Sequence record: MW512570.1
Length of the DNA: 44,363 nt
DNA from: Clostridioides phage CD1801
Direction: 5' to 3' (one strand)
Shown here: positions 15,100 to 29,428 of the stretch, in pieces
How the letters are laid out: each line of letters starts with the position of its first letter
Numbering within the stretch: the stretch's first letter is position 1
Position numbers and translations under genes: made by a program
Notes under the pieces: model-generated
What the model was told of the DNA's origin: nothing
What the model saw: the letters and a program-made list of their open reading frames with translations, nothing else
Databases searched by the model: none

Positions 15100-15140
15100 A
15101 AAACATATAAAGCACTTGGATATTACATTGTTTCAAGTGC
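15100..15140 (+). terminator. Rho-independent terminator.
   Basis: Stem AAGCACTTG...CAAGTGCTT followed by a T-rich tract. Confidence 0.5.
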
Positions 15141-15174
15141 TTTATATGTTAAAAAATGATATAATATAAGTACA

Positions 15175-15334
15175 GAATTATATTAACAATGTGGTATGTA
15201 AAGAACAGTGTTGTAACAGCAGTTAAAATTTTCATTTTTATGTTTTATATTAACCAAGTGGTATATAAATACATTGTAGGTGGGTGATGAAACACCACAC
15301 ACATTGTTTTATATTAACTATGTGGGCTCAAAAC
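15175..15334 (+). CRISPR. Mini-CRISPR array of 3 repeats and 2 spacers, with C. difficile type I-B-like repeats. No cas genes are present.
   Basis: Repeats at 15175-15203, 15242-15270 and 15306-15334 approximate GTTTTATATTAACTAAGTGGTATGTAAAT. The terminal repeat is degenerate at its 3' end. The spacers are 38 nt and 35 nt. An AT-rich leader with TATAAT lies upstream. The repeats are more divergent from each other than in a typical array. Confidence 0.55.
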
Positions 15335-15349
15335 TAAATAAACAAAGGA

Positions 15350-15380
15350 AGCACTTACTTTTTGGTAGGTGCTTTTTATT
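15350..15380 (+). terminator. Rho-independent terminator after the array.
   Basis: Stem AGCACTTAC/GTAGGTGCT (one G-U pair) followed by TTTTTATT. Confidence 0.45.
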
Positions 15381-24489: not shown

Positions 24490-24747
24490 ATGGATAATTT
24501 GATAAGTTTTATACCAGAGCAATTACTTTTATTGGTAGTTGCTCTTAATGTATTAGGATTTGGATTTAAGAAATACAAACAGTTAGATAATAAATACATT
24601 CCAATTATATTGCTTGTGCTAGGAATAGTATTTTCAATATGGATGCTAGGATTTAACCCTTCATCAATTTTACAAGGTATTTTATGTTGGGGAGTAGCCA
24701 TAGGAGCAAATCAAGTTTACAAACAACTAAAGGAGGAAAATAAATAA
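24490..24747 (+). CDS. Holin.
   Basis: 85 aa with 2-3 TM helices and a charged C-terminus. Lies immediately upstream of the endolysin, and its stop overlaps the endolysin start. Confidence 0.6.
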   Translation: MDNLISFIPEQLLLLVVALNVLGFGFKKYKQLDNKYIPIILLVLGIVFSIWMLGFNPSSILQGILCWGVAIGANQVYKQLKEENK

Positions 24748-25544
24748 TGAAAATAGCAATAGTACCAGGACACACTTTAAGTGGAAAAGGAACAGGAGCA
24801 GTAGGTTATATAGATGAAGGAAAAGAAAATAGAATTTTAACTGATTTAATTGTTAAATGGTTGAAACAAGGTGGAGCTACTGTATATACTGGAAAGGTAG
24901 ATAAGTCCAATAACTATTTAGCAGAGCAATGTCAAATAGCCAATAAGCAAAATGTAGACTTAGCAGTACAAATCCACTTTAATGCGAACAGTACAACCCT
25001 AAATCCAATGGGTACAGAAACAATATATAAAACTAACAATGGCAAAGTATATGCTGAAAGAGTTAATGATAAATTAGCAACAGTATTTAAAAACAGAGGT
25101 GCAAAATCAGACGTAAGAGGACTTTACTGGCTTAGTCATACAAAAGCTCCAGCAATATTAATAGAAGTGTGCTTCGTAGATAGCAAAGCAGATACAGATT
25201 ATTATATCAGACATAAAGACATAGTTGCTAAATTAATAGCAGAAGGTATATTAAATAAAAATATAAATAATGAGGGAGTTAAACAGATGTACAAACATAC
25301 AATAGTTTATGATGGAGAAGTTGACAAAATCCCTGCAACTGTGGTTGGTTGGGGTTATAATGATGGGAAAATACTGATATGTGATATAAAAGATTACGTA
25401 CCAGGTCAGACGCAAAATCTTTATGTTGTAGGCGGTGGAGCATGTGAGAAGATAGGTTCTATTACTAAAGAAAATTATACTATGATAAAAGGTAATGATA
25501 GATTTGATACCCTTTATAAGGCATTAGATTTTATTAAGAAATAA
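24747..25544 (+). CDS. Endolysin, N-acetylmuramoyl-L-alanine amidase (Amidase_3, CD27L-like).
   Basis: N-terminal MKIAIVPGHT...GAVGY. The region TVFKNRGAKSD...AILIEVCFVDSKAD...IAKLIAEGILNKNIN closely matches the C. difficile phage endolysin CD27L. Confidence 0.85.
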   Translation: MKIAIVPGHTLSGKGTGAVGYIDEGKENRILTDLIVKWLKQGGATVYTGKVDKSNNYLAEQCQIANKQNVDLAVQIHFNANSTTLNPMGTETIYKTNNGKVYAERVNDKLATVFKNRGAKSDVRGLYWLSHTKAPAILIEVCFVDSKADTDYYIRHKDIVAKLIAEGILNKNINNEGVKQMYKHTIVYDGEVDKIPATVVGWGYNDGKILICDIKDYVPGQTQNLYVVGGGACEKIGSITKENYTMIKGNDRFDTLYKALDFIKK

Positions 25545-25548
25545 GTTT

Positions 25549-25596
25549 GCAGAGAGTGGTAACTATTTCATCAGTTACCACTCTCTATTTTTTTAT
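25549..25596 (+). terminator. Rho-independent terminator of the late operon.
   Basis: 14-bp perfect stem AGAGAGTGGTAACT...AGTTACCACTCTCT followed by TTTTTTT. Confidence 0.7.
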
Positions 25597-25780
25597 CCTT
25601 TTTGTTATATTCTCTTTCAAGTGCTGTTTTTTTAAAAACCCATGTCGTTCCGAATTTTTTACAGTCTACACCTTCCACAAATTTTCCATTTCTTATATTA
25701 AGTCTTAACGTACTTTCACCTTTTTTATAAAGTTCACAAGCATCTTTTATAGAGATTAGTTCCTCAAATACATCTTTCAT
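25571..25780 (-). CDS. Small HTH DNA-binding protein (excisionase/MerR-like HTH_17). Candidate regulator of the downstream island.
   Basis: ISIKDACELYKKGESTLRLNIRNGKF...GTTWVFKKTALEREY resembles excisionase-type HTH. Its 3' end is encoded inside the terminator hairpin. Confidence 0.5.
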   Translation of the reverse strand: MKDVFEELISIKDACELYKKGESTLRLNIRNGKFVEGVDCKKFGTTWVFKKTALEREYNKKDKKIESGN

Positions 25781-25837
25781 TTTAACAACTCCTTTTATTT
25801 ATATTATAATCGCAAAAGTTTAAAAAGACAAGAAAAA

Positions 25838-25892
25838 AATAAACGTTTATGTTTAAAAAACTATTGACTTAATAAACGTAAGCGTTTATAAT
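25838..25892 (+). promoter_or_regulatory. Sigma-A-like promoter (TTGACT, 17 nt, TATAAT) with palindromic operator-like sites.
   Basis: TTGACT at 25864-25869 and TATAAT at 25887-25892. The palindrome TAAACG-TAAG-CGTTTA lies in the spacer. The perfect 12-bp palindrome ATAAACGTTTAT lies at 25838-25849. Confidence 0.55.
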
Positions 25893-25928
25893 ATGATTAA
25901 AGAAAGATAAACAAAGGGGGATTTAAAA

Positions 25929-26228
25929 ATGAAAAAAATAACTAAGAAAGAAATTAAAAAGTACGTTAGAGAAGCGGTTAATAACAATTTTAACTGGGAA
26001 ATAAATAAATGTGGGTTTTACATTAAAAATAATGAAATAGAATTTTTTATTTCTTACAAGGGTCAAGGAATAGATGAAAATGTATATAATGATACTTATG
26101 AAGAAATAATTTACATTGAGGATATTATAGAAGAATACAGAAGAAAAGAATACAATTTAGAAGATGTAGATTCTATTGTATATGACAATGTAAATGATAT
26201 GATTAATTGTTATAATGAAGAAAAGTAA
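25929..26228 (+). CDS. Small protein with an acidic C-terminal half (99 aa).
   Basis: ORF with the SD AAAGGGGG. The C-terminus is rich in D and E. Confidence 0.45.
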   Translation: MKKITKKEIKKYVREAVNNNFNWEINKCGFYIKNNEIEFFISYKGQGIDENVYNDTYEEIIYIEDIIEEYRRKEYNLEDVDSIVYDNVNDMINCYNEEK

Positions 26229-26952
26229 TAAAAATAAATACAGTGAGTTTAATCAAATTCACTGTATTTATTTTTACAATAGTAGAATAATATTATTAGT
26301 TCAGGATGTGATAGGCTTGAAAATTGGAGATAAATTCGAAAACCTTACAATACTAGACATAGAACAAAAAAACAGTAGGAAATACTGTCTATGTAAATGT
26401 AAAAATTGTGGCAATGAAAAGTGGATAAGAGCAGATAGTTTAAAAAGAATTAAAGGGTGTGGATGTTTGCAAAAAGAAACACAGTTTAAGCAAAATGATT
26501 TGACAAATAAAAAGTTTGGAAGATTAACAGCACTAAAAAACACTAATAAAAAAGCTAAAAGTGGTCACTATATTTGGATTTGTAAGTGCTCTTGTGGAAA
26601 TGAGATTAAGACAACAGAAAACAATTTAACTACTGGCAGAACTAAATCATGTGGATGTTTGAAAAAGGAATCTAATATAAAAAATGCAAAGATAGCATTA
26701 AAAGTACATAAAGAAAAAAACATTATTGATGATACAAATCTATCTATTATAAAAAAGACAGAAGCATATCCTAATTCAAAAACTAAAATTAGAGGAGTTT
26801 CTTGGAATAAAGAAAAAAGAAAATACTGCGCACAGATAGAATTTAAGAAAACACATTATAATTTAGGATACTATGACAACATAAGAGAAGCAGAAGAAGC
26901 ATACAAAAAAGCCAAAGAAAAATTCTTAAAAGAAATAAACGGAAAAGTTTAA
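26215..26952 (+). CDS. AP2-domain DNA-binding protein with duplicated Cys-rich (Zn-binding) repeats.
   Basis: Two repeats of C.C.C..CGNE...GCGCL.KE, plus a C-terminal AP2-like segment GVSWNKEKRKYCAQIEF...YNLGYYDNIREAEEAY. The true start may be internal. Confidence 0.45.
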   Translation: MKKSNKNKYSEFNQIHCIYFYNSRIILLVQDVIGLKIGDKFENLTILDIEQKNSRKYCLCKCKNCGNEKWIRADSLKRIKGCGCLQKETQFKQNDLTNKKFGRLTALKNTNKKAKSGHYIWICKCSCGNEIKTTENNLTTGRTKSCGCLKKESNIKNAKIALKVHKEKNIIDDTNLSIIKKTEAYPNSKTKIRGVSWNKEKRKYCAQIEFKKTHYNLGYYDNIREAEEAYKKAKEKFLKEINGKV

Positions 26953-26959
26953 AAAACCA

Positions 26960-26988
26960 TTGACTTAATAAACGCAAACGTTTATAAT
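26960..26988 (+). promoter_or_regulatory. Second copy of the same promoter-operator cassette.
   Basis: TTGACTTAATAAACGCAAACGTTTATAAT is near-identical to 25864-25892 over ~60 bp. The palindrome TAAACG-CAAA-CGTTTA lies between -35 and -10. Confidence 0.55.
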
Positions 26989-27028
26989 ATAATTAAAGAA
27001 AGAGATAATCAAGAGGAGGATATAAAAA

Positions 27029-27499
27029 ATGAATAAACAAAAAGCTAGAAGATTTTTAAGAGTTATAGATATGAATATAGATAAAATAGAGGAAGAAGCT
27101 ATAAAAGCTTTTAAAGAAAGTTGTTTAATCAAAGAGACTAATAATATAAAAATTTATATCGATATACAAGGAAAAGTTGAAGCGATAGCAGTTCAAACTT
27201 GGGCTAAACTTTTAGATGATGACAAAGAAATTAATATTTTCACATTAAATCAAACACCAACTCATTTAAACGATATGCTTGGAGAAATTTGTTACGTAAA
27301 CGATTATGAAGAATTTGAAAATTGGTGTGAAAATGAGTGGGAAAATTTGGATTGGGATAGTTATAAAAAATTCAATAAAGAAAATTTCGAAGAAATTGCT
27401 GAAAGAAATATAGATGATTGCGCATCAGTTTTTTTAGAAGAATTACGAGAAGGCATTGAAAGTTGTAAACAAGAATTACAAAATGCAGTTGAAAATTAA
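27029..27499 (+). CDS. Acidic 156-aa protein. Candidate DNA-mimic or anti-defence protein.
   Basis: Strongly acidic, with D/E/W-rich segments such as ENWCENEWENLDWD. Driven by the duplicated operator-controlled promoter. Confidence 0.4.
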   Translation: MNKQKARRFLRVIDMNIDKIEEEAIKAFKESCLIKETNNIKIYIDIQGKVEAIAVQTWAKLLDDDKEINIFTLNQTPTHLNDMLGEICYVNDYEEFENWCENEWENLDWDSYKKFNKENFEEIAERNIDDCASVFLEELREGIESCKQELQNAVEN

Positions 27500-27535
27500 G
27501 TAGAAGAGTATTATTATTAATGTATATAGTATCGC

Positions 27536-27705
27536 TTTTAAGATTAACTACGAGGGATTTAAAATATTTTTTAATTTATTTAGAAATAATATTGTAATAA
27601 GAATTTTAAGATTAACTATGAGGGATTTAAATGTCAATTTAATTTATATAGAAATAATTTAATGGCAATTTTTTAGATTAACTATTTGGAAATAAAAACA
27701 GTGTA
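27536..27705 (+). repeat. Three tandem ~68-bp units with a 29-nt CRISPR-repeat-like core plus a 38-39-nt spacer-like segment.
   Basis: Cores TTTTAAGATTAACTACGAGGGATTTAAAA at 27536-27564, 27604-27632 and 27671 onward. Each is ~72-76% identical to the C. difficile I-B repeat, including the ATTAACTA core and TTTAAAT tail. The spacer-like parts are themselves similar to each other. The third unit is truncated at the terminator. Confidence 0.6.
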
Positions 27706-27728
27706 TTTAATAAATACACTGTTTTTTA
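27696..27728. terminator. Bidirectional rho-independent terminator between convergent genes.
   Basis: Perfect palindrome ACAGTGTATTTAATAAATACACTGT flanked by AAAA and TTTTTT. Confidence 0.7.
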
Positions 27729-27739
27729 ATGCTAAAGAT

Positions 27740-28048
27740 TTAGTCATTATGATAACTTAATCCTTCGATTATAAATCCTACATTCGTCGTCATTTCTGCT
27801 TCATCACTTTGTAATATTCCTTCCGTAAATTCGCTATCGCTTGATAATGTTATTTTTTTCCTTGCCACCATTTCTAAAATTGTTTGAAATAGTTTGATTT
27901 TCATATTCTTATCAAGTCCAGCGTATTGCAAATAGTTTGCCACCTCCTGCGAAAACTTATTTAATTCAGATTTAGTCATTTTTTTAGATAATTCTTTTCC
28001 AATGCTTAAATAAACTTTTTTAGATTGTTCAACATCCATTTTTTTCAA
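27740..28048 (-). CDS. Hypothetical protein.
   Basis: 102-aa ORF with its own RBS (GGGGTTG). Confidence 0.4.
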   Translation of the reverse strand: MKKMDVEQSKKVYLSIGKELSKKMTKSELNKFSQEVANYLQYAGLDKNMKIKLFQTILEMVARKKITLSSDSEFTEGILQSDEAEMTTNVGFIIEGLSYHND

Positions 28049-28734: not shown

Positions 28735-28878
28735 ATGAGCGAATTTTTACTAGGAGTGTTAGCTAGTTTAACAGCTAGCTTTATTACATATATTATTTCC
28801 AGAAAAGTAAAAAGCCACTCTGGCAGGAGTGACTTTGAGCTTGATGTAAAAATCAAGTTTAATAAAAAACGACATTAA
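28735..28878 (+). CDS. Type I toxin-like small membrane peptide (47 aa), paralog of 15541-15690.
   Basis: ATG after GGAGGTGG. Sequence MSEFLLGVLASLTASFITYIISRKVKSHSGRSDFELDVKIKFNKKRH. The promoter and flanking inverted repeats are conserved with the first locus. Confidence 0.6.
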   Translation: MSEFLLGVLASLTASFITYIISRKVKSHSGRSDFELDVKIKFNKKRH

Positions 28879-29428
28879 TATTTAGTTAATGAAACTTCAC
28901 TCTAGGCTAATAGATTGTAGTTTCTTTTTTTGTTTTTGATACGAATTTACATCTTTATTATATCGCATTTTGAGAAAAAATAAAACTATGAATATTAGAA
29001 ATATATTTTATTTTATCTCTAAGTATATATATTATTAGCCACCTAAAAAACTTTCATAAAAACAAAAAGAACAATATCTTTTTGGCAACTGGCTGGCATA
29101 ATTTATAAGAATTTTATAAATCTTAGTCCCTATAGCTTTGCGTCACTAATTTTCTCTAGTTTTGCCGATTTAGTTTTGTTATACAACTAAAATAATACAA
29201 TAGAATTAGTTAATGTTCAACAAGGTTGTTTGAAAATTAAATAAATTTATAGGTATGAATAGTATTTATTCCTAAAAAGGAACAGAGTATTTAAAGGTCA
29301 AGGTAAGTTAGAATAGTATTGTGAACTAACATTTGATTATGCGAAATTCTATGAAACAGGAACCCTGTGACTTTAGTCATGGGAGGTTCAGTGTATATCG
29401 CGTATTTCAATTGTTATAAGTATTTTAT

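What the first reader, a model, noticed from the sequence alone, without database searches (positions are those of the whole stretch)
25571..27730. Post-lysis island with operator-controlled duplicated promoters, acidic small proteins and CRISPR-repeat-like RNA units. Candidate anti-CRISPR/anti-defence locus.
Directly after the endolysin terminator lies a minus-strand HTH protein, then two near-identical sigma-A promoters. Each promoter has a TAAACG-N4-CGTTTA palindrome between -35 and -10. They drive a 99-aa and a 156-aa protein with strongly acidic halves, separated by an AP2/Cys-repeat DNA-binding protein. The island ends in three tandem units whose 29-nt cores resemble the C. difficile I-B CRISPR repeat. 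This is the architecture of acr-aca loci (promoter with an inverted-repeat operator that an HTH protein autoregulates). It also matches the reported association of repeat-mimicking RNA anti-CRISPRs with acr loci. The acidic proteins could act as DNA mimics.
Basis: partly seen in the sequence, partly recalled or inferred. Interest (0 to 1): 0.7.

Follow-up and report, generated by a model that had tools for sequence, protein, structure and literature searches.

The report
AcrIB2 anti-CRISPR locus with pseudo-CRISPR array
This is the already published AcrIB2 anti-CRISPR locus of a Clostridioides difficile temperate phage; what the paper read here does not describe is a small divergent repressor with its own palindromic operators and a conserved, mutated mini CRISPR-like array always fused behind the anti-CRISPR gene, which may be an RNA decoy for the host's CRISPR proteins.

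Summary
[quoted passage not shown] So the anti-CRISPR reading is right, but its core is already known.

The TAAACG-N4-CGTTTA palindromes occur only in the two duplicated promoters (4 sites, 0.07 expected). Across relatives they track the divergent 69-aa HTH gene (11/11 loci), not the AP2 gene. Loci with a different small regulator carry a different palindrome (8/8).

The three terminal units are CRISPR-derived: 29-nt repeats match natural repeats at 22-24 of 29 positions, with period 66-68 nt, a degenerate last repeat and a terminator. They are not an ordinary array:
- The "spacers" are three conserved paralogous types that match only homologous arrays.
- All pseudo-repeats share T24, where 1202 of 1207 genuine repeats have G.
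- The element follows acrIB2 in 28 of 29 IMG/VR loci.
- One unit is better conserved than either flanking gene in five of six comparisons.

I read it as a co-transcribed RNA decoy (Racr-like). This is inferred, not shown. The 99-aa protein remains uncharacterised.

The parts
25551..25586 (.). Hairpin terminator shared by the endolysin (+) and the convergent HTH69 gene (-)
   Evidence: The scan found 14 pairs, 6 of them G-C, followed by a T-run. The hairpin overlaps the 3' end of the HTH69 ORF.
25571..25780 (-). HTH69: 69-aa basic helix-turn-helix protein, the candidate Aca-like repressor of the locus
   Evidence: Weak Pfam matches: HTH_59 at 7e-5 and HTH_17 at 8e-5, both below the cut-off. phrog_2655 matches at 2e-20. 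pI is 9.14. The gene co-occurs with the TAAACG-N4-CGTTTA operator in 11/11 loci. It is also present in the ParA-type phage JD032, whose only annotated recombinase is a 167-aa putative integrase/recombinase.
25803..25831 (-). Promoter of HTH69 (TTGTCT-17-TATAAT), an inverted copy of P1 with a degenerate operator (TAAAC..GCGAT)
   Evidence: Promoter scan. Inverted repeat I1, 38 nt and 76% complementary to P1. Alignment A2.
25840..25855 (.). Upstream operator-like palindrome of P1 (TAAACGTTTATGTTTA), between the divergent -35 boxes
   Evidence: Pattern search, one mismatch. The position is conserved in P2 and in L093.
25864..25892 (+). Promoter P1 (TTGACT-17-TATAAT) with the perfect palindrome TAAACGTAAGCGTTTA at 25873-25888
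25929..26228 (+). P99: 99-aa acidic protein of unknown function, a variable cargo slot of the locus
   Evidence: phrog_15595 and phrog_15920, both of unknown function. No Pfam, PADLOC, NCBIfam or PDB relatives. pI 4.59. Other phages carry a 149-aa or a 277-aa gene in this slot.
26229..26276 (+). Terminator-like hairpin after P99
   Evidence: Inverted repeat I6: 22-nt arms, 95% complementary, 4-nt loop.
26317..26952 (+). AP2-domain DNA-binding protein with two Cys-rich repeats, resembling a homing-endonuclease DNA-binding module without a nuclease domain; homologue of phiCDHM13 gp27
   Evidence: AP2 at 4.8e-6; phrog_374 at 5e-50 in two stretches. D6 repeat. Proposed as a possible Aca in PMC10732046. 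It occurs without the palindrome in L079.
26936..26988 (+). Promoter P2 for acrIB2: upstream palindrome at 26936-26951, TTGACT-17-TATAAT at 26960-26988, perfect palindrome TAAACGCAAACGTTTA at 26969-26984
27029..27499 (+). [quoted passage not shown]
   Evidence: 94.9% identity to phiCD38-2 gp27. That protein was validated in PMC10732046. Invariant D92/E94/E95. The family is confined to C. difficile. AF2 model pLDDT is 79, with no PDB fold match.
27500..27535 (+). Conserved leader of the pseudo-array, with a -10-like TATAGT ending 5 nt before the first pseudo-repeat; no terminator lies between acrIB2 and the units
   Evidence: The leader is 75-100% identical across loci whose acrIB2 CDS is 78-98% identical.
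27536..27565 (+). Pseudo-repeat 1 (TTTTAAGATTAACTACGAGGGATTTAAAAT)
   Evidence: 22/29 to natural repeats. CRISPR-DR14 at 18.2 bits.
27566..27603 (+). Pseudo-spacer type A (38 nt)
   Evidence: Conserved in all related phages. Its only hits in C. difficile phages are at the homologous arrays; hits in other phages are weak and near chance. It is paralogous to types B and C.
27604..27632 (+). Pseudo-repeat 2 (TTTTAAGATTAACTATGAGGGATTTAAAT)
   Evidence: 24/29. CRISPR-DR14 at 23.8 bits.
27633..27669 (+). Pseudo-spacer type B (37 nt); in most relatives it carries (TG)nTATAAT ending 5-9 nt before the next repeat, here degraded to TTTAAT
27670..27698 (+). Terminal degenerate pseudo-repeat (TTTTTAGATTAACTATTTGGAAATAAAAA)
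   Evidence: 23/29. It has the same design as the terminal repeats of genuine C. difficile arrays.
27694..27732 (.). Bidirectional intrinsic terminator closing the acrIB2-array transcript (+) and the P102 transcript (-)
   Evidence: Perfect 16-nt arms (I18). The hairpin plus U-run appears in the fold.
27740..28048 (-). P102: conserved convergent gene of unknown function, always downstream of the pseudo-array
   Evidence: phrog_4021. Present in 29/29 IMG/VR loci that carry the pseudo-repeat. Noted as a conserved unknown gene in PMC10732046.

Best explanation
The island is the AcrIB2 anti-CRISPR locus of a C. difficile temperate phage. I describe it as three layers.

1. Protein effector. The 156-aa acidic protein is AcrIB2. 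In its phiCD38-2 orthologue it blocks type I-B interference, probably by binding Cas3 as a DNA mimic. This is shown by others for the orthologue and inferred here by 95% identity.

2. Control.
- The divergently transcribed 69-aa HTH protein binds the TAAACG-N4-CGTTTA palindromes, which lie over the -35/-10 spacer and about 33 nt upstream.
- In this way it represses P1 (driving P99), P2 (driving acrIB2) and more weakly its own promoter, like an Aca repressor.
- This is inferred from operator position and from strict regulator-operator co-variation between phages.

3. RNA arm.
- acrIB2 is transcribed through a 36-nt leader into a pseudo-CRISPR array and stops at a strong terminator.
- The array consists of 29-nt repeats that keep the repeat core. 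All carry a fixed change at a near-invariant position, G24 to T. By analogy with other type I-B systems, that position would fall in the 8-nt 5' handle.
- The 36-40-nt spacer-like intervals are conserved, were never acquired, and mostly look like copies of the short promoter leader of genuine prophage arrays.
- The resulting RNAs most likely act as crRNA mimics that occupy Cas6 and/or Cascade subunits without guiding interference. This would be a Racr-like decoy that adds to AcrIB2. It is inferred; transcription, processing and inhibition are untested.

P99 is an exchangeable acidic cargo gene of unknown activity. The AP2 protein is a DNA binder whose target is not the palindrome.
For: AcrIB2 identity:
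-, with the experiments in PMC10732046.
- That paper reports that the locus is highly transcribed in phiCD38-2 lysogens.

Operators:
- 4 sites against 0.07 expected, confined to the duplicated promoters.
- HTH69 and the palindrome co-occur in 11/11 loci. This includes L093, where HTH69 directly precedes acrIB2 without AP2 or P99.
- L079 has AP2 but no HTH69 and no palindrome.
- Loci with the alternative regulator (phiCD38-2 gp24 type) keep the same -35, -10 and 5'UTR skeleton. They carry CAAAG-N6-CTTTG instead, in 8/8 loci.

Pseudo-array:
- Similarity to natural repeats is far above chance and is supported independently by Rfam CRISPR-DR14.
- The period of 66-68 nt, the degenerate terminal repeat and the terminator match genuine arrays.
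- 28/29 IMG/VR loci with the pseudo-repeat have acrIB2 immediately upstream; the other locus is truncated.
- Every complete acrIB2 locus examined has 1-4 units; L095 is cut off within the first unit.
- All 19 distinct internal pseudo-repeats have A18, G21 and T24. Of 1207 genuine repeats, 1202 have G24 and none has the combination.
- Pseudo-spacers in C. difficile phages hit only homologous arrays. No PAM-flanked target was found in the window or in 1.36 Mb of held C. difficile-related sequence.
- In contrast, the window's genuine mini-array has a spacer that hits a coding gene of other phages.
- The R1 plus pseudo-spacer A unit is 94-100% identical between loci whose acrIB2 CDS is 78-98% and P102 CDS 81-96% identical.

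Precedent: RacrIC1 lies 11 nt downstream of acrIC5 in one operon, and non-targeting crRNA also reduces interference (PMC10651486).
Against: - No expression, processing or binding data exist for the units.
- Repeat identity is only 76-83%, below the 90% used to call Racr candidates.
- The repeats have no stable predicted hairpin, so Cas6 recognition cannot be judged.
- T24 could abolish Cas binding altogether rather than poison it.
- A pure decoy does not explain why the spacer-like parts are conserved in three types.
- The ORF alone, cloned under Ptet, gives strong inhibition, so the units are not required for AcrIB2 to act.
- In this window the internal -10 boxes are degraded.
- HTH69 scores best against 'excisionase' families, and the related loci are not independent samples.
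Confidence: 0.6

Rival explanations
1. The units are a working crRNA-like gene (CreR/CreA-like, or 'Cracr'). The pseudo-repeats are processed and loaded. The conserved pseudo-spacers guide Cascade by partial complementarity to a host promoter, such as a cas operon or another defence gene, and silence it.
For: - The psiR-psiS-psiR-terminator architecture and the 36-40-nt spacer length fit crRNA geometry.
- Conservation of the pseudo-spacers in three types across phages is what a fixed target would produce.
- The pseudo-spacers look like promoter DNA, as CreR spacers do.
- Viral Cracr candidates for type I-B are reported in bioRxiv 10.1101/2024.10.29.618823.
Against: - No PAM-flanked seed match was found in the window or in 1.36 Mb of held sequence.
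- Types A and B/C are out of register by 1-2 nt at the seed end.
- A one-unit variant (L093) has no pseudo-spacer at all.
- The near-invariant position G24 is mutated.
- The cas promoters themselves could not be retrieved, so the key test is missing.
Confidence: 0.15
2. The units are an ordinary phage-borne CRISPR mini-array used with host Cas proteins against competing phages. This is how the homologous region of phiCD211 is annotated and described.
For: - The phiCD211 record annotates the homologous 292 bp as CRISPR.
- PMC10732046 describes it as a 4-spacer array targeting known C. difficile phages.
- C. difficile prophages do carry real arrays, including this window at 15175-15334.
Against: - In C. 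difficile phages the 'spacers' match only the homologous arrays. There they are flanked by repeat sequence, not a CCW PAM; matches in other phages are weak and near chance.
- The spacers are paralogues of each other and identical across unrelated phages, so they were not acquired.
- The repeats differ from host repeats at a near-invariant position.
- Mini-arrays are defined by host-identical repeats and virus-matching spacers (PMC11656645).
Confidence: 0.05
3. The units are a decaying relic of a CRISPR array that hitch-hikes between acrIB2 and P102, with no function of its own. At most it serves as a 3' UTR and terminator region.
For: - Unit number varies from 1 to 4.
- One locus tolerates a Tn916-like insertion in the array.
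- One variant keeps only the terminal unit.
- The internal -10 boxes are degraded in this window.
- Predicted RNA structure is weak.
Against: - The element is retained in every complete acrIB2 locus examined, across the different phage genome types examined.
- R1 plus pseudo-spacer A is more conserved than both flanking coding genes in 5 of 6 comparisons.
- The derived states A18, G21 and T24 are fixed in all 19 distinct pseudo-repeats, while other positions vary.
Confidence: 0.15
4. The repeats are a cis-acting sensor in the acrIB2 mRNA. Host Cas6 cuts the 3' UTR at the pseudo-repeats and removes the terminator hairpin, so AcrIB2 output changes with Cas6 level.
For: The units lie in the same transcription unit as acrIB2, between the stop codon and the only terminator. 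Linkage to acrIB2 is strict.
Against: Purely inferential. P102 is equally linked. No such mechanism turned up in the papers read here.
Confidence: 0.05

Closest known systems
AcrIB2 locus of C. difficile phages phiCD38-2 / phiCDHM13 (Muzyukina et al. 2023, mSphere, PMC10732046)
   Same: - Same protein: 95% identity to the validated phiCD38-2 AcrIB2.
- Same position after the lysis genes.
- Same AP2 neighbour as in phiCDHM13.
- Same conserved convergent downstream gene.
   Different: - In this window acrIB2 is fused, as in phiCD38-2, but sits in a phiCDHM13/JD032-type locus with AP2, HTH69 and its own second promoter.
- Slot 1 holds a 99-aa gene that was not among those tested.
- The paper does not describe the palindromic operators, the HTH69 or gp24 regulators, or the pseudo-array. 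It mentions the array only as a 'CRISPR array' in phiCD211.
RNA anti-CRISPRs (Racr), especially RacrIC1 downstream of acrIC5 (Camara-Wilpert et al. 2023, Nature, PMC10651486)
   Same: A CRISPR-repeat mimic encoded on a phage, immediately downstream of a validated acr gene and probably in the same transcript. The expected mode is competition for Cas proteins.
   Different: - Racrs are solitary repeat units at least 90% identical to host repeats. Here there are 1-4 tandem units only 76-83% identical.
- The units have conserved spacer-like intervals and a fixed change at position 24.
- Subtype I-B has no tested Racr in that paper.
- The motif GGGATTTAAA is absent from its held supplementary lists.
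CreR/CreA crRNA-like regulators and viral 'Cracr' RNAs (bioRxiv 10.1101/2024.10.29.618823)
   Same: Degenerate repeat, spacer-like segment and terminator, encoded by a phage. Type I-B is among the predicted targets.
   Different: Those RNAs are defined by partial complementarity to a cas or toxin promoter. No target was found here, and the cas promoters could not be examined.
Viral CRISPR mini-arrays for inter-virus competition (PMC11656645), and prophage arrays of C. difficile (PMC4173771, PMC4556805)
   Same: A short array on a phage that uses the host repeat family, with a short leader and a terminal degenerate repeat plus terminator. The window has a genuine one at 15175-15334.
   Different: The repeats are not host-identical. 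The spacers are not unique and have no protospacers.
Aca repressors of acr operons
   Same: A small HTH protein next to acr genes, with inverted repeats overlapping the acr promoter.
   Different: - The gene is divergent and upstream, not downstream in the acr operon.
- The fold class is excisionase/MerR-like (HTH_17).
- One regulator would serve two duplicated promoters.
- Binding is untested.

Membership tests
AcrIB2 protein family | Close sequence relationship over the full length to the validated phiCD38-2 AcrIB2, including the conserved acidic patch D92/E94/E95 | tested here: met
   94.9% identity over 156 aa. D92, E94 and E95 are invariant in alignment A1.
AcrIB2 protein family | Inhibits C. 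difficile type I-B interference | not testable with these tools
   Shown for the phiCD38-2 orthologue only (PMC10732046).
acr-aca operon | HTH regulator gene adjacent to the acr gene(s) | tested here: met
   HTH69 lies at 25571-25780, divergent from P1. The orientation differs from the classical downstream aca.
acr-aca operon | Inverted-repeat operator overlapping the acr promoter | tested here: met
   Perfect palindromes lie between -35 and -10 of P1 and P2: 4 sites against 0.07 expected. They co-vary with the regulator allele.
acr-aca operon | The regulator binds the operator and represses acr transcription | not testable with these tools
   Needs EMSA or reporter assays.
Racr (RNA anti-CRISPR, solitary repeat unit) | High similarity to the host CRISPR repeat (SRUFinder: at least 90% identity) | tested here: not met
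   22-24 of 29 positions, 76-83%.
Racr (RNA anti-CRISPR, solitary repeat unit) | Solitary, not part of a repeat-spacer series | tested here: not met
   There are three units with period 66-68 nt here. Only the L093 variant has a single unit.
Racr (RNA anti-CRISPR, solitary repeat unit) | Located in an acr gene context, with a promoter upstream | tested here: met
   The units start 36 nt after acrIB2, with P2 upstream and no intervening terminator. 28/29 loci are linked.
Racr (RNA anti-CRISPR, solitary repeat unit) | The RNA binds Cas6/Cas7 and inhibits interference | not testable with these tools
   No data.
Viral CRISPR mini-array | Repeats identical to those of the host system | tested here: not met
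   All pseudo-repeats have A18, G21 and T24. Among 1207 genuine repeats, none has the combination and one has T24.
Viral CRISPR mini-array | Unique spacers matching related viruses | tested here: not met
   The pseudo-spacers are paralogous. In C. difficile phages they match only homologous arrays. The control genuine spacer does match a phage gene.
crRNA-like regulator (CreR/CreA/Cracr) | Degenerate repeat(s), a spacer-like segment and a terminator | tested here: met
crRNA-like regulator (CreR/CreA/Cracr) | Spacer-like segment partially complementary to a PAM-flanked cas or toxin promoter | tested here: inconclusive
   No match in the window or in 1.36 Mb of held sequence. C. difficile cas operon promoters could not be retrieved.

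The most novel reading that the evidence does not exclude
The acrIB2 gene always carries an RNA partner: a multi-copy pseudo-crRNA array. Its repeats are mutated at position 24, a near-invariant position expected to lie in the crRNA 5' handle. Its spacer-like parts are copies of an array leader promoter, so each repeat can be transcribed on its own. The RNAs would act as dominant-negative crRNA mimics, or as Cascade re-programmers, against the type I-B system. If so, this would be an untested kind of type I-B RNA anti-CRISPR and a new tandem architecture. The 'CRISPR array' annotated in phiCD211-like phages would then be counter-defence rather than defence.
Probability: 0.4. Interest if true: 0.7.

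Novelty: new member of a known kind. Interest (0 to 1): 0.5.

Why it matters
[quoted passage not shown] AcrIB2 is described by its authors as the first inhibitor found for it.

If the pseudo-array behind acrIB2 is an RNA inhibitor, the natural locus has two arms, protein and RNA. Experiments with the ORF alone would miss the RNA arm.

It would also correct the current description of the homologous region in phiCD211-like phages as an anti-phage CRISPR array. It would extend RNA anti-CRISPRs to diverged, tandem repeat mimics below the 90% identity and solitary-repeat criteria of SRUFinder.

The regulator-operator pairs (HTH69 with TAAACG-N4-CGTTTA; gp24 type with CAAAG-N6-CTTTG) give concrete, testable control elements for acr expression in this pathogen's phages.

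The core of the finding, an anti-CRISPR locus, is already published. The added value is therefore moderate.

Tried and rejected
1. Rfam at gathering thresholds finds nothing in the region. Only sub-threshold CRISPR-DR14 hits appear.
2. TRF does not report the units, because they are too diverged.
3. PADLOC, Pfam and NCBIfam give nothing for P99, P156 or P102, and there are no PDB sequence relatives.
4. The single-sequence AF2 model of P99 has pLDDT 49.8 and is unusable, so no fold search was run.
5. The AcrIB2 model (pLDDT 79) has no significant PDB match. The best hits are superoxide dismutases at TM about 0.3, which is noise, so no link to Ocr, ArdA or known Acr folds was found.
6. ParA-centromere (parS) reading of the tandem units: rejected. 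The units are present in this window (where an integrase lies about 1.7 kb downstream and no ParA-sized ORF in the 1.4 kb beyond P102) and also in ParA-type phages. They track acrIB2 and P102, not ParA.
7. Excisionase reading of HTH69: considered, because phrog_2655 is annotated as excisionase. It is weakened by two facts. The gene is present in the ParA-type phage JD032, whose only annotated recombinase is a 167-aa fragment. It also co-varies with promoter palindromes.
8. AP2 as the palindrome binder: rejected, because L079 has AP2 without the palindrome and L093 has the palindrome without AP2.
9. Retrieving C. difficile cas operon promoters failed in three ways:
   - The phiCD211 Cas3-like fragment found no relatives.
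   - Array-flanking loci from genome contigs held no cas genes for C. difficile.
   - Two Cas6 protein searches returned no C. difficile member.
10. Small ORF and SD-like reading of the pseudo-repeat (GAGGG-N7-ATG, MSI*): not conserved in type A or C units, so dropped.
11. Distant AcrIB2-like proteins in metagenomes have other genes downstream and no obvious array. A cross-species test of whether the mimic tracks the host repeat was therefore not possible.

Full report
**Context.** The window is a mosaic temperate phage or prophage of Clostridioides difficile. The 2.3-kb island is 93% identical, over about 80% of its length, to phages JD032, JD033 and phiCDHM11/13/14. Its right-hand third is 96% identical to phiCD38-2, phiCD111 and phiCD146. 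The island follows the holin and endolysin genes (24747-25544). Downstream lie a conserved minus-strand gene, a type I toxin, a c-di-GMP riboswitch and a serine recombinase.

**Check of the observation.**
- The endolysin terminator (25551-25586) overlaps the 3' end of a 69-aa minus-strand HTH gene.
- Two TTGACT-17-TATAAT promoters lie in an 86-nt duplication that is 84% identical.
- Each has a perfect TAAACG-N4-CGTTTA between -35 and -10. With one mismatch allowed there are four sites, all in these two blocks, against 0.07 expected.
- P99 and P156 are acidic, with pI 4.6 and 4.4 and C-terminal halves of net charge -12 and -17.
- The gene between them encodes an AP2 domain preceded by two Cys-rich repeats.
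- Three units start at 27536, 27604 and 27670. They match natural C. difficile repeat variants at 22, 24 and 23 of 29 positions without gaps.
- A random window of the same composition yields about 0.1 such hits.
- Rfam's CRISPR-DR14 model is the top, sub-threshold hit at exactly these coordinates.
- I confirmed the canonical repeat GTTTTATATTAACTA(T/A)(G/A)TGG(T/A)ATGTAAAT from 75 IMG/VR loci, where it forms arrays of period about 66 nt.

**The protein core is already known.** P156 is 94.9% identical to phiCD38-2 gp27.
- Muzyukina et al. (mSphere 2023, PMC10732046) named that protein AcrIB2. It restores conjugation of a targeted plasmid, abolishes CRISPR self-targeting, co-purifies with Cas3, and is proposed to be a DNA mimic.
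- Their conserved D92/E94/E95 are invariant in my alignment.
- The PHROG split of P156 into residues 1-102 and 103-156 mirrors the split gp28/gp29 of phiCDHM13.
- The AP2 gene is the homologue of phiCDHM13 gp27, which led those authors to the locus.
- The family is confined to C. difficile among 5.8 billion proteins. A profile search of 1.8 billion representatives adds only two marginal relatives.
- My AF2 model (pLDDT 79) has no significant PDB neighbour, so no link to Ocr, ArdA or known Acr folds can be claimed.
- P99 is not the 149-aa gp26 that they tested. It occupies a variable slot that holds 99-, 149- or 277-aa genes in different phages. Its structure could not be modelled (pLDDT 49.8) and its function is open.

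**Control layer.** The paper read here does not describe regulation of the locus.
- Comparison of 22 related loci gives a clean natural experiment.
- The TAAACG-N4-CGTTTA palindrome is present in all 11 loci that carry the HTH69 gene. This includes L093, where HTH69 directly faces acrIB2 with no AP2 or P99.
- It is absent from all 11 loci that lack HTH69, including L079, which has AP2.
- Eight of those loci encode a different 70-aa protein (phiCD38-2 gp24 type) at the same divergent position. They keep the same -35, -10 and 5' UTR, but carry CAAAG-N6-CTTTG upstream and an unrelated sequence between the hexamers.
- Regulator and operator are thus exchanged as a pair. This points to HTH69, not AP2, as the palindrome binder.
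- HTH69's own promoter is an inverted, degenerate copy of P1, which fits autoregulation.
- HTH69's best family matches are annotated as excisionases. The gene also sits in the ParA-type phage JD032, whose only annotated recombinase is a 167-aa putative integrase/recombinase. I therefore favour a transcriptional role.
- All of this is inference from sequence. The related loci are close relatives, not independent samples.

**The repeat units are derived from a CRISPR array.** Genuine C. difficile arrays in the fetched loci end with a 3'-degenerate repeat followed by a terminator. One class has a very short leader with TG(G/A)TATAAT ending 8-9 nt before repeat 1. The window itself holds such a genuine 2-spacer array at 15175-15334. 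The acrIB2-linked element has the same layout:
- a 36-nt conserved leader;
- 29-30-nt repeats;
- 37-38-nt intervals;
- a degenerate last repeat;
- a perfect 16-bp hairpin terminator.

**The units are not an ordinary array.**
- Across 59 loci (19 distinct alleles) there are 1-4 units.
- The "spacers" fall into three paralogous types (A, B, C) that recur in unrelated phages.
- In the phage database, C. difficile phages match them only at homologous arrays, where they are flanked by repeat sequence rather than a CCW PAM. Hits in phages of other hosts are weak and near chance.
- They have no PAM-flanked match in the window or in 1.36 Mb of held C. difficile-related sequence.
- As a control, spacer 2 of the genuine array hits an antirepressor gene of phiCD211-like phages.

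**Signs of constraint.**
- Every one of 29 IMG/VR loci containing ATTAACTANNAGGGATTTAAA has a P102 homologue convergent downstream. 28 have an acrIB2 homologue immediately upstream, and the remaining locus is truncated there.
- Every complete acrIB2 locus examined has the element. L095 is cut off inside the first unit, and in L103 a Tn916-like insertion interrupts the second pseudo-repeat.
- All 19 distinct internal pseudo-repeats share A18, G21 and T24 and lack G1, while positions 5-7 and 16-17 vary.
- Among 1207 genuine internal repeats of this family, positions 18 and 21 are naturally variable. Position 24 is G in 1202 and T in one, and none has the combination.
- Position 24 is the third base of the last 8 nt of the repeat. 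From general knowledge of type I-B systems, that is where the crRNA 5' handle lies; this was not tested here.
- The first repeat plus pseudo-spacer A is 94-100% identical between loci whose acrIB2 CDS is 78-98% and P102 CDS 81-96% identical. It is better conserved than both flanking genes in five of six comparisons.
- 17 of 18 type B/C pseudo-spacers carry TATAAT or TACAAT ending 5-9 nt before the next repeat, about half of them with an upstream TG. This is the same placement as in genuine short leaders. In this window those boxes are partly degraded.

**Mechanism.** The best-supported reading is a three-part counter-defence locus.
- It comprises AcrIB2, a divergent Aca-like repressor acting on duplicated operator-bearing promoters, and a co-transcribed pseudo-crRNA array acting as a decoy for Cas6 or Cascade.
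- The closest precedent is RacrIC1, which lies 11 nt downstream of acrIC5 in one operon. Both parts inhibit independently, and even a non-targeting crRNA lowers interference (PMC10651486).
- The element fails two formal Racr criteria: at least 90% identity and being solitary.
- SRUFinder, as described in the paper, discards matches below 90% identity and clustered repeats. The motif is absent from the held supplementary lists.

**Rivals.**
- A CreR- or Cracr-like guide RNA with a host promoter target is attractive, because the pseudo-spacers are conserved and promoter-like. I could not obtain the C. difficile cas promoters, and no target was seen.
- A relic array is contradicted by the conservation pattern.
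- A Cas6-sensing 3' UTR is pure speculation.

**Limits on the RNA part.** The repeats have no stable predicted fold, there are no expression data for the units, and the ORF alone, cloned under Ptet, gives strong inhibition. The RNA part remains a hypothesis at roughly 40%.

**Verdict.** The central discovery, an anti-I-B CRISPR locus with an acidic DNA-mimic-like protein, was published in 2023. The parts not described in the papers read here are the regulator-operator pairs and the universal, constrained pseudo-array behind acrIB2. These are new members of known kinds (Aca-type control; Racr or crRNA-mimic), and they can be tested directly in an existing experimental system.

Noticed in passing
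window 15108-15378 (+): A genuine 2-spacer CRISPR mini-array. It has a leader hairpin, TGATATAAT 9 nt before repeat 1, and repeats at 15175, 15242 and 15306 (24-27 of 29 to canonical). The terminal repeat is degenerate and followed by a terminator. The same array sits in phiCD119 and phiCDHM19. Spacer 2 (15271-15305) matches an antirepressor gene of phiCD211-like phages at 30/32.
   Followed up: partly
window 28735-29176: A c-di-GMP-I riboswitch at 29081-29176 on the minus strand (69 bits) points antisense towards a 47-aa type I toxin ORF at 28735-28878 (+). That ORF matches NCBIfam NF047374 CD_typeI_toxin at 82 bits against a cut-off of 60. The antitoxin RNA may be under c-di-GMP control.
   Followed up: partly
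window 27740-28048 (-): P102 (phrog_4021, no known domain) is convergent on the pseudo-array terminator and is present in 29/29 loci that carry the pseudo-repeat. Its identity varies independently of acrIB2. Its function is unknown, and it is as tightly linked to the array as acrIB2 is.
   Followed up: partly
L103 2088-3940: A Tn916-like element (tyrosine integrase plus Xis) is inserted inside the second pseudo-repeat of an acrIB2-linked pseudo-array in one C. difficile genome.
   Followed up: no
L002 1189-1530 (phiCD38-2), L079 1968-2300: An alternative 70-aa divergent regulator (gp24 type, weak DUF6471 match) is paired with a CAAAG-N6-CTTTG palindrome upstream of an otherwise homologous promoter. 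It is present in 8/8 loci that lack HTH69.
   Followed up: yes
L137 1116-1607; L138 430-1017: Two marginal full-length relatives of AcrIB2 appear in metagenome contigs (E 8e-6 and 1.5e-4). One lies directly after a RadC-like gene, a context typical of anti-restriction regions of conjugative elements. No CRISPR-like units were looked for there.
   Followed up: no
L001 4158-4307 (phiCD211): The 49-aa ORF annotated as 'helicase', described in the literature as a Cas3 C-terminal fragment, sits next to the pseudo-array and P102. It found no relative in 185,579 species genomes by pattern search plus tblastn.
   Followed up: partly
L139-L160: The exact C. difficile repeat pattern also forms large arrays in Hathewaya limosa, Clostridium baratii, C. 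bornimense, Caloranaerobacter and several MAGs. Hathewaya limosa and C. baratii have adjacent cas-like ORFs. The repeat family is therefore shared widely among Clostridia.
   Followed up: no
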